From: Candidatus Kaiserbacteria bacterium
GTDB taxonomy: Bacteria; Patescibacteriota; Minisyncoccia; Phycocordibacterales; UBA2100
Assembly: GCA_027066795.1 (NCBI GenBank)
Contig: JAMONA010000013.1
Coordinates: forward strand, 1-45,982
DNA: 45,982 nucleotides
Direction: 5' to 3'
Below, one piece after another: positions 16,569 to 18,358 of this stretch (the stretch's first letter is position 1; the number at the start of each line of letters is the position of its first letter). A program made the translations under genes and the position numbers. The notes under the pieces were generated by a model. The model saw nothing but the letters and a program-made list of their open reading frames with translations, was not told the origin of the DNA and made no database searches.

Positions 16569-16597
16569 AAAAAAGCGAGGCAACGCCTCGCTTTTTT
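16569..16597. terminator. bidirectional rho-independent terminator (orphaned terminator of the membrane-protein gene?)
   Basis: AAAAA-GCGAGGC-aac-GCCTCGC-TTTTTT. It lies 19 nt past the stop codon of the duplicated gene-end fragment at 16616-16671. Confidence 0.8.
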
Positions 16598-16620
16598 ACT
16601 TACTTATTTATATTACTATT

Positions 16621-16671
16621 TAAAGCACTTGAGGTACCAGAGTGATATAATCTGTATTACTATGGCTACAA
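16621..16671. repeat. left 51-bp direct repeat (copy of the 3' end of CDS 17927-18358)
   Basis: 47/51 identical to 17941-17991 at a constant offset of 1,320 bp. The perfect core is 38 bp (16626-16663). Confidence 0.95.
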
Positions 16672-16699
16672 GCATCTAACTATTTAGCTGTAAAAATAT

Positions 16700-16729
16700 A
16701 ATTAAACTTGCATGAACGCAAGTTTAATT
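16700..16729. promoter_or_regulatory. 12-bp perfect inverted repeat abutting the cassette promoter -35 (candidate operator)
   Basis: AATTAAACTTGC-atgaac-GCAAGTTTAATT. Confidence 0.4.
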
Positions 16730-16755
16730 GTCATTTATAGAAAATGTGCTATATT
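16728..16755 (+). promoter_or_regulatory. sigma-70-type promoter with extended -10 for CDS 16822-17865
   Basis: TTGTCA, 16 nt, (TGTGc)TATATT. The SD GGAAGGAGG lies at 16805-16813. Confidence 0.55.
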
Positions 16756-16821
16756 CATAAGTAGAAAATACTACAGTCATAAAACACAAAACTTTTAAAC
16801 CTTAGGAAGGAGGTTAGTCCG

Positions 16822-17865
16822 ATGAATACATGTATACATGGAATACAATCTAAATTGTGTGGTTACTGCAACGGCACAAAAAAAGTGGGGTCTAGAATAA
16901 ATGTCCCTAAAAATATACCGAGTAATGAGAGCTTAGTTAATGCAGCCGCAGCCCTAACCAAAAAAGAACTACCTGTAAATAACGCAATATCTATTCGACC
17001 AAAACGAGGACACCCAAGCCTTGTTCAATTAGGGCCGAATATAACTTTCATTCACTTCCTTGAGCGACCGGCAATATGGCTAATTGAGGAAGTGTTAGCA
17101 AAATGCCCAAATCTTAAGACCGTTCAATTCTTACCTAATATGTTAAGCAGCATATCTCCGGCCCAAAAAGAACTCCTCTCGAACAAAAAAGTAAACTTTA
17201 CTTCTGGACACTGGAAACCAGAAGCAGCATGGGCTGGGCCGCGTATCCTTAGTCCAGACTATCATGTTAAAAAAGAGTTCTTGATGGATCTAAGTGGAGA
17301 CCAACTTAAATTGTTCCAAGAACTTTTGGACCTCGGGTTTGATGAAGCTCTGTTGGCCTCAAGGTACTTTTGTTTAAAAGGAGAGGACTTTATAAGTCAA
17401 CGAGAGTGCTCCGAAAAGTTCGATCTAAACTTTAAAATAAAAGCAATTGGAGGGAGCTTGTTCATCAATGCAGTAATTTCTTATCTTGACCCCCACTTCA
17501 AAGTATCAAATGATACCAAACTAAAGATGGAGACTATGCGCAAGTCTGTGTTCAGAATACGGGAAATGTTGCAAAATAAAAACGAAATGGATAACTTATT
17601 ATCCGAACTGCAAATAACAAAACTCCCAGACAACCTGACACTCTCAAAAATAGAAAAATTTAGTTCTATTTGCAAAGCTTACAACTCTGGACAACTCTCG
17701 TTACTTAAGGAGAAGCGCCATGCTGAGATACTTACCCAACGCTGGGGTCTAAATAACGGTTGTTTTAAAACACTGGAAGCTGTAGGCGAACTTTTTAGTG
17801 TTACAAGAGAGCGCATAAGGCAAATCGAGGCAGAATCTTTAGATACACTGCGTATAATAGACTAG
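16822..17865 (+). CDS. protein with a C-terminal sigma-70 region-4 HTH; the N-terminal 290 aa are unrecognised (CxH..CxxC start)
   Basis: The C-terminus ...HAEILTQRWGLNNGCFKTLEAVGELFSVTRERIRQIEAESLDTLR closely matches region 4.2 of primary sigma factors. The N-terminus reads MNTCIHGIQSKLCGYCNG. Strong SD. Confidence 0.8.
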   Translation: MNTCIHGIQSKLCGYCNGTKKVGSRINVPKNIPSNESLVNAAAALTKKELPVNNAISIRPKRGHPSLVQLGPNITFIHFLERPAIWLIEEVLAKCPNLKTVQFLPNMLSSISPAQKELLSNKKVNFTSGHWKPEAAWAGPRILSPDYHVKKEFLMDLSGDQLKLFQELLDLGFDEALLASRYFCLKGEDFISQRECSEKFDLNFKIKAIGGSLFINAVISYLDPHFKVSNDTKLKMETMRKSVFRIREMLQNKNEMDNLLSELQITKLPDNLTLSKIEKFSSICKAYNSGQLSLLKEKRHAEILTQRWGLNNGCFKTLEAVGELFSVTRERIRQIEAESLDTLRIID

Positions 17866-17893
17866 TACAAAACCGATCTTTACTAACAAACTT

Positions 17894-17925
17894 GACTACG
17901 ATTTTCATATCGTAGTCATTTTTTT
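17894..17925 (+). terminator. rho-independent terminator of the cassette ORF
   Basis: GACTACGAT-tttcat-ATCGTAGTC followed by ATTTTTTT. Confidence 0.8.
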
Positions 17926-17926
17926 A

Positions 17927-18358
17927 TTAAAATTTCAAACTAAAACACTTGAGGTACCAGAGTGATATAATCTGTATTACTATTGCCATAACCACCATCT
18001 CTACAGCATAGTGTGTAAAGTAGCCTAGTGAACCAGCCGGTAACAATGATGCAAATACCACACTACCAAACAAGGCTCCACAGAGTGGTCCACCTACACC
18101 ACACATCTGTAATGCTATGAAGCCCAAGGCAGTTCCAATGATGCCAAATATGCCAGCGCCTTGTGCCTTAGCTGTATTAGCTCTGTGCCTCATAACCTTC
18201 ACGAGGCATGTCATGTTTAGAGAAAAAACTATTATAAATACCAATCCAAGATAAACATATGGACCGTTAAGTATGTGACTAGGTAAAATAAATAAGGCAA
18301 GCAAAAAAGCTACAGTAAAAACAACTACTGATACAACATCATTAAACAATGCCTTCAT
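17927..18358 (-). CDS. integral membrane protein (about 4 TM), unknown function
   Basis: Hydrophobic segments throughout, with a conserved-looking QMCGVGGPLCG stretch. Its last codons form the right direct repeat. Confidence 0.65.
   Translation of the reverse strand: MKALFNDVVSVVVFTVAFLLALFILPSHILNGPYVYLGLVFIIVFSLNMTCLVKVMRHRANTAKAQGAGIFGIIGTALGFIALQMCGVGGPLCGALFGSVVFASLLPAGSLGYFTHYAVEMVVMAIVIQIISLWYLKCFSLKF
17941..17991. repeat. right 51-bp direct repeat (authentic 3' end of CDS 17927-18358)
   Basis: See the left repeat at 16621-16671. Confidence 0.95.

What the first reader, a model, noticed from the sequence alone, without database searches (positions are those of the whole stretch)
16569..17991. 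1,320-bp single-gene cassette bounded by 51-bp direct repeats that duplicate the 3' end of the adjacent membrane-protein gene
16621-16671 and 17941-17991 align at a constant offset of 1,320 bp. They match at 47 of 51 positions, with a 38-bp perfect core (16626-16663 = 17946-17983).

The right copy is the real 3' end of the minus-strand CDS 17927-18358 (...IISLWYLKCFSLKF*). The left copy, read in the same frame, would end ...SLWYLKCFK* (TAG at 16616-16618). A strong terminator (16569-16597) follows it 19 nt later. That terminator currently sits, apparently uselessly, between two divergently oriented genes. So the left copy looks like the ancestral gene end plus its terminator, now orphaned.

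Between the repeats is a self-contained expression unit: a 12-bp inverted repeat, a promoter, a strong SD, one 347-aa ORF and its own terminator.

This is the footprint of a site-specific insertion into a gene 3' end that regenerates the target, as with attL/attR of integrative elements. However, the element is only 1.3 kb and carries no integrase or transposase. It is therefore either trans-mobilised, a remnant, or a cassette type I cannot name.
Basis: partly seen in the sequence, partly recalled or inferred. Interest (0 to 1): 0.72.

Follow-up and report, generated by a model that had tools for sequence, protein, structure and literature searches.

The report
Removable one-gene insert at a gene end
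In a small-genome bacterium (likely a Patescibacteria/Parcubacteria member), a 1.3-kb piece of DNA carrying one gene for an unusual sigma-factor-like regulator sits between two identical 38-letter copies of the end of a neighbouring gene. A strain of the same species from another sample has the same spot without the piece. So the piece was inserted, or can be lost, by recombination at that short sequence, even though it carries no enzyme to move itself.

Summary
16621-16671 and 17941-17991 match at 47 of 51 positions, with a perfect 38-bp core (16626-16663 = 17946-17983), 1320 bp apart. The core occurs only twice in the 528-kb genome. The right copy lies in the 3' end of a 143-aa membrane-protein gene. 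The left copy is an orphan copy of that gene end (...CFK*), followed by a bidirectional terminator. Between the copies is a self-contained unit: a 12-6-12 palindrome, a promoter, a strong Shine-Dalgarno site, one 347-aa gene and a terminator. The protein has an N-terminal CxHG...CxxC motif, a domain like archaeal DUF1699_N and a C-terminal sigma-70 region 4, but no region 2. It belongs to a large, little-known family whose members sit in unrelated places. An independent assembly of a closely related strain has the same structure, so it is not an assembly error. A Logan contig from a different study, 99%+ identical, joins the left side to the right side through a single core. Contig depths in a second run suggest the insert is carried by only part of that population. 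There is no integrase, transposase or relaxase. Best reading: a polymorphic, integrase-less single-gene cassette, put in (or lost) by recombination at the core and moved by something other than itself.

The parts
16565..16601 (.). Bidirectional intrinsic terminator (A6-stem-T6) that follows the orphan gene end. In the empty-site form it ends the membrane gene's transcript upstream of the mraZ promoter.
   Evidence: 17-bp stem, 7 GC pairs; I2
16616..16618 (-). TAG stop of the orphan (ancestral or empty-site) membrane-gene end ...CFK*
   Evidence: the empty-site contig in X2 joins here
16621..16671 (.). Left junction repeat (att-like copy 1)
16626..16663 (.). 38-bp perfect core, copy 1 (likely crossover region)
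   Evidence: X2 joint ambiguous over 35 bp here
16700..16729 (.). Perfect 12-6-12 inverted repeat upstream of the insert promoter (possible operator)
   Evidence: unique in genome
16728..16755 (+). Promoter-like site of the insert gene (TTGTCA-16-TATATT, TG extension)
   Evidence: consensus match only
16806..16815 (+). Shine-Dalgarno AGGAAGGAGG
   Evidence: sequence
16822..17865 (+). 347-aa sigma-like regulator: N-terminal CxHG..CxxC motif, DUF1699_N-like domain (about residues 38-135), helical middle, sigma-70 region 4 (299-344)
17893..17918 (+). Intrinsic terminator of the insert gene
17941..17991 (.). Right junction repeat (att-like copy 2), inside the 3' end of the membrane gene
17946..17983 (.). 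38-bp perfect core, copy 2
17927..18358 (-). 143-aa membrane protein. In the occupied state its last codons (...SLKF*) come from the insert side; in the empty state it would end ...CFK* (141 aa).

Best explanation
The 1320-bp segment (16664-17945, plus one copy of the core) is a discrete, integrase-less mobile cassette. It carries a single gene for a sigma-70-region-4 regulator, with its own operator-like palindrome, promoter, Shine-Dalgarno site and terminator.

It was joined into the chromosome by a crossover in a 38-bp sequence identical to the 3' end of the neighbouring 143-aa membrane-protein gene. This works like attB x attP integration (or Campbell-type integration of a circular form carrying one core copy). 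The resulting direct repeats are hybrid att-like junctions.

The gene keeps a 3' end either way. With the insert, its last codons (...SLKF*) come from the cassette side. Without it, the original end (...CFK*) and its own bidirectional terminator remain, and that terminator then sits upstream of the mraZ promoter.

The reverse event, recombination between the two cores, gives the empty site. That site exists in another population of the same species, and the cassette seems to be carried by only part of the population in the run most like the source sample.

The cassette encodes no recombinase, so the catalyst must act in trans. It could be an integrase of another element in the population or host homologous recombination (RecA-dependent or not) over the 38-51-bp identity. 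Which of these it is, and whether it acted once or acts repeatedly, is not shown.
For: - Exact 38-bp core with flanks diverging on both sides, only two copies genome-wide.
- The right copy is the live 3' end of the membrane gene; the left copy is an orphan gene end with stop and terminator.
- A conspecific empty site removes exactly the 1320 bp, joined within the core (X2 contig).
- The same structure is in an independent strain assembly (L026).
- In X1, insert unitigs have depth 3.6-4.4 against flanks of 8.9-10.4, and the core unitig has 14.8. This fits about 40% occupancy, if the core counts once in empty and twice in occupied genomes (inference).
- The insert is absent from the same interval in genus relatives.
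- The insert's GC is lower than the dcw genes (37.1% against 43-45%).
- The unit has its own expression signals.
Against: - No recombinase is encoded, and the genome's only tyrosine recombinase is a housekeeping Xer.
- The core has no inverted-repeat structure typical of recombinase binding.
- Homologs of the sigma-like gene elsewhere show no comparable flanking repeats (apart from one ambiguous terminator-like 40-nt repeat in L034).
- The core is found nowhere else: not in JGI metagenomes, IMG/VR or the genome. So there is no second insertion of the same element, and the direction (insertion versus deletion) is not fixed by an outgroup, because the membrane gene has no relatives.
- The X2 evidence is a single contig.
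- No circular excision product was observed (contigs cannot show it).
Confidence: 0.6

Rival explanations
1. A one-off acquisition, not a mobile unit. A DNA fragment carrying the sigma-like gene was integrated once, by homology-facilitated illegitimate or short-homology recombination, using 38 bp that happened to match the gene end (or was duplicated during the event). There has been no repeated mobility since. The X2 empty site is simply the pre-insertion state, or a deletion by slippage between the repeats.
For: No recombinase in the unit or genome apart from Xer. Sigma-like homologs lack flanking repeats. The core is unique to this locus.
Against: To keep a perfect 38-bp identity at both junctions, with divergent flanks on both sides, the incoming DNA must already have carried a copy of this species' gene end. 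That is most easily explained if the element had previously sat at this site (an excised circle), so repeated movement is the simpler account. The exact removal in X2 and the apparent mixed population in X1 fit an element that comes and goes.
Confidence: 0.25
2. The real mobile unit is larger, namely the whole Ddl-mraZ variable block (rhodanese, Vut_1, flavodoxin, PspC, membrane gene, sigma gene, about 4.5 kb). The 38-bp duplication is incidental inside it.
For: Relatives differ in gene content across the whole interval, and the block as a whole has low GC.
Against: The X2 empty site keeps the membrane gene (17946-18161) and removes exactly the 1320 bp between the cores. No other repeat bounds a larger unit.
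Confidence: 0.1
3. Assembly artefact: a collapsed or duplicated repeat.
For: Logan contigs in X1 break at the core, as they do at any repeat.
Against: An independent MEGAHIT assembly of another sample (L026) spans both junctions with an identical sequence. The repeat (38-51 bp) is shorter than typical reads. X2 shows the alternative empty form.
Confidence: 0.02

Closest known systems
Cis-mobilizable elements (CIMEs) of streptococci (integrase-less elements flanked by att direct repeats at 3' ends of rpmG, rpsI, fda, rplL; PMC7563491)
   Same: No recombinase gene. Flanked by direct repeats that are att-like copies of a target gene's 3' end. Size in the CIME range (1.2-13 kb). Carries cargo. Can only move with help in trans or cis.
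   Different: CIMEs are defined as decayed ICEs or IMEs found in tandem with an ICE or IME that shares the att site and mobilises them by accretion. Here there is no ICE or IME next to the element or anywhere obvious, and no remnant of one. This unit is a clean single gene with its own promoter and terminator. The host is a Patescibacteria member, not a Firmicute.
Integrative mobilizable elements (IMEs) and gene-3'-end-targeting genomic islands
   Same: Site-specific-like insertion into a gene 3' end that keeps a working 3' end (attL/attR-like hybrid repeats). The empty site exists in conspecific genomes.
   Different: No integrase, relaxase or oriT-like features. Only 1.3 kb.
Integron gene cassettes
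   Same: Single-gene mobile units moved by a recombinase acting in trans.
   Different: Integron cassettes have no promoter and carry a palindromic attC. Here the unit has its own promoter and terminator, the repeats are direct copies of a host gene end, and there is no IntI (the only recombinase is Xer).
Sigma-70 family (RpoD-like) sigma factors and archaeal DUF1699 proteins (for the cargo gene)
   Same: C-terminal sigma-70 region 4 (Pfam PF04545 1.5e-8; structural match to S. aureus SigA domain 4, Z 8.7). The middle region resembles a region 3-containing protein (atlas TM 0.66), and residues 38-135 resemble the DUF1699_N domain (TM 0.68).
   Different: No region 2 (the -10 recognition and melting module), and no global fold match to sigma (TM 0.17). 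It has an N-terminal zinc-binding-like CxHG..CxxC motif. It is a distinct family of about 350 aa (hundreds of 50%-identity clusters), sometimes fused to true sigma regions 2/3 or to DnaA domain IV.

Membership tests
CIME (cis-mobilizable element) | Flanked by direct-repeat att sites, one of which is the 3' end of a target gene | tested here: met
CIME (cis-mobilizable element) | Lacks its own recombinase and mobilisation genes | tested here: met
   Only ORF is the sigma-like gene; genome has only Xer
CIME (cis-mobilizable element) | Integrated in tandem with an ICE or IME sharing the att site (accretion), or derived from a decayed ICE or IME | tested here: not met
   Neighbours are the membrane gene and mraZ/dcw cluster. 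There are no ICE or IME genes nearby and no other repeats bounding a larger unit.
IME / integrative element | Encodes its own integrase | tested here: not met
IME / integrative element | Relaxase or oriT for conjugative mobilisation | tested here: not met
   No ORF besides the sigma-like gene; an oriT was not searched for specifically
IME / integrative element | Excision giving an empty attB and a circular attP form | tested here: inconclusive
   Empty attB-like site present in conspecific run X2. The circle was not observable with contigs.
Integron gene cassette | Promoterless ORF with a palindromic attC | tested here: not met
   Own promoter, Shine-Dalgarno and terminator; recombination sites are direct repeats, not attC
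Integron gene cassette | An integron integrase (IntI) in the genome | tested here: not met
   The only tyrosine recombinase scores best as XerD/XerC
Xer-dependent (IMEX/dif) element | Integration at a dif-like site (two about 11-bp Xer-binding arms around a spacer, imperfect palindrome), usually at the replication terminus | tested here: not met
   No inverted repeat within the core. The contig's GC-skew switch is about 17 kb away (contig-level only).
Insertion sequence / transposon | Terminal inverted repeats, transposase, short (2-12 bp) target duplication | tested here: not met
   No transposase ORF; the duplication is 38-51 bp with no terminal inverted repeats
Sigma-70 family sigma factor (for the cargo protein) | Region 4 (-35 element binding HTH) | tested here: met
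   Pfam PF04545; RpoD C-terminal models; VIA Z 8.7 to SigA domain 4
Sigma-70 family sigma factor (for the cargo protein) | Region 2 (core-binding, -10 recognition) | tested here: not met
   No region 2 Pfam hit. Foldseek global TM 0.17 to SigA holoenzymes. The atlas links residues 38-135 to archaeal DUF1699_N instead.

The most novel reading that the evidence does not exclude
Patescibacteria may carry a class of integrase-less, single-gene 'regulatory cassettes'. These would be shuttled between gene 3' ends by recombination at short copies of the target gene end, catalysed in trans or by homologous recombination. The cargo here is a member of a widespread, uncharacterised sigma-region-4 family (DUF1699_N-like plus sigma r3/r4-like), which might act as an alternative sigma or RNAP-binding factor. 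Presence or absence of the cassette would vary within populations.
Probability: 0.2. Interest if true: 0.65.

Novelty: new variant of a known kind. Interest (0 to 1): 0.45.

Why it matters
Integrase-less elements at gene 3' ends are known from streptococci (CIMEs), where they hitch-hike with ICEs. This case has no helper element nearby, sits in a reduced-genome Patescibacteria lineage where little is known of how genes are acquired, and carries a regulator of an unnamed sigma-like family instead of metabolic or resistance cargo. It also occurs in both occupied and empty forms in natural populations. If it moves, it shows how reduced-genome episymbionts gain and lose regulatory genes without dedicated mobility genes, and it gives a clean system to test whether host recombination alone can shuttle att-like cassettes. 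If it does not move, it is still a documented case of a 38-bp-mediated precise gene-end insertion that keeps both the host gene's 3' end and its terminator.

Tried and rejected
- Searched the genome for other copies of the core: none.
- Searched JGI metagenome contigs and IMG/VR for the exact 38-bp core: none.
- Searched metagenomes for relatives of the 143-aa membrane protein, to find empty sites in other species: none. Genus relatives lack the gene; the G003 hit is a different 482-aa protein.
- Compared relatives' Ddl-mraZ junctions with the core and terminator: no similarity beyond the conserved mraZ promoter.
- Looked for flanking direct repeats around six other sigma-like family genes: none significant against shuffles. 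L034 has an 88%, 40-nt terminator-like repeat flanking a LigT + sigma-like pair, which I count as ambiguous.
- Looked for RNA evidence: no RNA holder listed; this is not evidence either way.
- Literature search for DUF1699 returned only unrelated FAM83 papers.
- NCBIfam MzaA (MZA anti-phage sigma) matched only region 4, far below its cut-off, so I rejected it.
- Considered and rejected: integron cassette (no attC, own promoter); IS or transposon (no TIRs or transposase, long repeat); dif/IMEX integration (no palindromic core, not at the skew switch); assembly artefact (independent assembly L026 and the X2 empty site).
- No circle junction could be tested, because read laying saw only Logan contigs.

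Full report
What was checked. 16621-16671 and 17941-17991 share 47 of 51 positions, with a perfect 38-bp core at 16626-16663 = 17946-17983, 1320 bp apart. The repeat finder extends the pair to 71 nt at 85% identity. A search of the whole 528-kb, 44-contig assembly finds only these two copies. The right copy is the live 3' end of the minus-strand 143-aa membrane gene 17927-18358, whose last codons (...SLKF*) lie just beyond the repeat. The left copy, in the same frame, is an orphan gene end ...MLVAIVIQIISLWYLKCFK* with its stop TAG at 16616-16618. Nineteen bases later lies the strongest terminator of the region, 16565-16601: an A6-stem-T6 structure, so bidirectional. Between the copies:
- a perfect 12-bp inverted repeat with a 6-bp spacer at 16700-16729, unique in the genome;
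- a promoter-like site at 16728-16755;
- a strong Shine-Dalgarno site at 16806-16815;
- one ORF of 347 aa at 16822-17865;
- a terminator at 17893-17918.
There is no integrase, transposase or relaxase ORF.

Host and context. RsmH of this genome is 74-77% identical to Candidatus Pacebacteria MAG proteins. Together with the 0.5-Mb genome and relatives of 0.4-1.3 Mb, this places it in the Patescibacteria (Parcubacteria); this is inference. The locus is at the head of the dcw cluster: mraZ (16037-16471, minus; Pfam MraZ), rsmH, ftsL, ftsI. In genus relatives the interval between Ddl and mraZ varies in gene content. G002 has Ddl directly upstream of mraZ, and G001 has only a Vut_1 gene there. G000 has rhodanese, Vut_1, flavodoxin, PspC, the 143-aa membrane gene and the sigma-like insert. 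Only the mraZ promoter with its repeats is conserved across relatives. Neither the core nor the terminator appears at the relatives' junctions.

The structure is real and polymorphic.
- An independent MEGAHIT contig from ENA sample ERZ27262665 (L026, 72.9 kb) carries the identical locus: 99.9% identity over 18 kb, 11 SNPs, none in 16569-17991.
- Two public runs hold the stretch. In run X2 (2025, a different study), a Logan contig joins 16200-16625 directly to 17946-18161, 99%+ identical, with 216 bp on the shorter side. The joint is ambiguous over 35 bp, i.e. it falls within the identical core. The rest of the block, including the membrane gene, is kept.
- In run X1 (2019 hydrothermal-vent metagenome, 93% of words, the likeliest source), contigs break at the repeat, as any repeat makes them. 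Their depths are informative: flanks 8.9 and 10.4, insert 3.6 and 4.4, and the 38-bp core unitig 14.8. If the core is counted once in empty genomes and twice in occupied ones, these figures fit about 40% of the population carrying the insert (inference; contig depths are coarse).

The cargo. The ORF product has a C-terminal sigma-70 region 4 (Pfam PF04545, E 1.5e-8) and matches many RpoD C-terminal models only in region 4. It has no region 2.
- Only three homologs (31-35% identity) exist in the 90%-clustered protein collection. A profile search finds a large family: 570 representatives at E ≤ 1e-10 and 186 at ≤ 1e-30.
- The family has an invariant N-terminal CxHG...CxxC motif (a likely zinc site) and conserved blocks such as HxDGH and RYFCLKGE.
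- Some members are fused N-terminally to true sigma regions 2/3, and others C-terminally to DnaA domain IV.
- An AlphaFold2 model built on a 40-sequence alignment is confident (pLDDT 88, pTM 0.74). Globally it does not resemble a sigma holoenzyme subunit: Foldseek TM 0.17. The only strong structural matches are to sigma region 4 and HTH domains (VIA Z 8.7 to S. aureus SigA domain 4). The ESM atlas links residues 38-135 to archaeal DUF1699_N domains and 154-345 to a sigma region 3/4 protein.
- Homologs sit in unrelated neighbourhoods. None has flanking repeats that beat shuffled controls. The one exception is a 40-nt terminator-like repeat at 88% in L034, which is ambiguous.
So the flanking-repeat architecture is specific to this insertion, not a family-wide signature.

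Mechanism, shown versus inferred. Shown:
- a 38-bp identical core at both junctions, with divergent flanks on each side;
- an orphan gene end plus terminator on one side, and the live gene end on the other;
- an independent conspecific empty site that removes exactly the unit;
- no mobility genes in the unit, and only a housekeeping Xer and no resolvase in the genome.
Inferred:
- the unit entered, or can leave, by a crossover in the core, which is the anatomy of attB x attP integration and attL x attR excision;
- the crossover must have been driven in trans, either by an integrase of another element in the population or by homologous (RecA-dependent) or short-homology recombination between 38-51-bp repeats;
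- the population in X1 is mixed.
The most economical history is:
1. the membrane gene originally ended ...CFK* with its terminator;
2. a circle carrying the sigma-like cassette and a copy of the core recombined into it, leaving the gene with a new 3' end supplied by the cassette;
3. recombination between the two cores can restore the empty site.
The direction cannot be fixed, because no outgroup carries the membrane gene. The core was not found in JGI metagenomes or IMG/VR.

Comparison with known systems. It works like an integrative element inserted at a gene 3' end. Its closest named kind is the CIME of streptococci: integrase-less, att-flanked, 1.2-13 kb, cargo-bearing (PMC7563491). It fails CIME membership on the defining features of tandem accretion with an ICE or IME and descent from a decayed ICE or IME. 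It is not an integron cassette (own promoter, no attC, no IntI), not an IS or transposon, and not a dif/Xer element (no palindromic core). I file it as a new variant of a known kind: an integrase-less att-flanked single-gene cassette, polymorphic in natural populations of a Patescibacteria member, carrying a regulator of a little-studied sigma-region-4 family.

Scores. Interest 0.45: moderately surprising to a specialist (integrase-less shuttling of a regulatory gene in CPR, with both states seen in nature) but mechanistically close to known CIMEs and IMEs. The most novel reading not excluded is a class of recombination-shuttled regulatory cassettes in Patescibacteria (probability 0.2, interest 0.65 if true). 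The decisive next step is read-level mapping of X1 and X2 to the occupied, empty and circle junctions.

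Noticed in passing
window 15900-22100 (Ddl to mraZ interval): This interval varies in gene content within the genus. G002 has Ddl directly before mraZ, G001 has only Vut_1, and G000 has six extra genes (rhodanese, Vut_1, flavodoxin, PspC, 143-aa membrane, sigma-like insert). Low GC (about 37%) across the extra block. It may be a hotspot for gene acquisition upstream of the dcw operon.
   Followed up: partly
window 16540-16560 (mraZ promoter): The only sequence conserved upstream of mraZ across relatives is the promoter with MraZ-type direct repeats and a DnaA-box-like TTGTGGATAA.
   Followed up: no
L026:1-404 versus window 9414-9817: The first 404 bp of the conspecific ENA contig have no match anywhere in the G000 assembly, while the rest of the 18 kb is 99.9% identical. 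This is a strain-specific segment next to a 132-aa ORF.
   Followed up: no
G000 contigs C3:7420, C5:14502, C23:25043: Copies of an 18-bp palindromic motif (xCTTGCCCTATAGCAAGT-like), possibly a regulatory binding site family.
   Followed up: no
window 34000-36000: The GC skew of the contig switches sign here; this may be a replication origin or terminus.
   Followed up: no
L036:1621-1649 and 1985-2013: A perfect 29-bp palindrome duplicated on both sides of an 89-aa HTH-domain gene, in a contig carrying a sigma-like family member.
   Followed up: no
P0183, P0187, P0154 (sigma-like family members): Some members of the cargo protein family are fused to DnaA domain IV (Bac_DnaA_C); others (P0206, P0162, P0173) are fused C-terminal to true sigma regions 2/3.
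   Followed up: partly
L030 (homolog locus): One sigma-like homolog sits next to P4-like phage genes (cII-like, Beta_protein) and a HigB toxin gene, which suggests the family is sometimes carried on phage-related islands.
   Followed up: no
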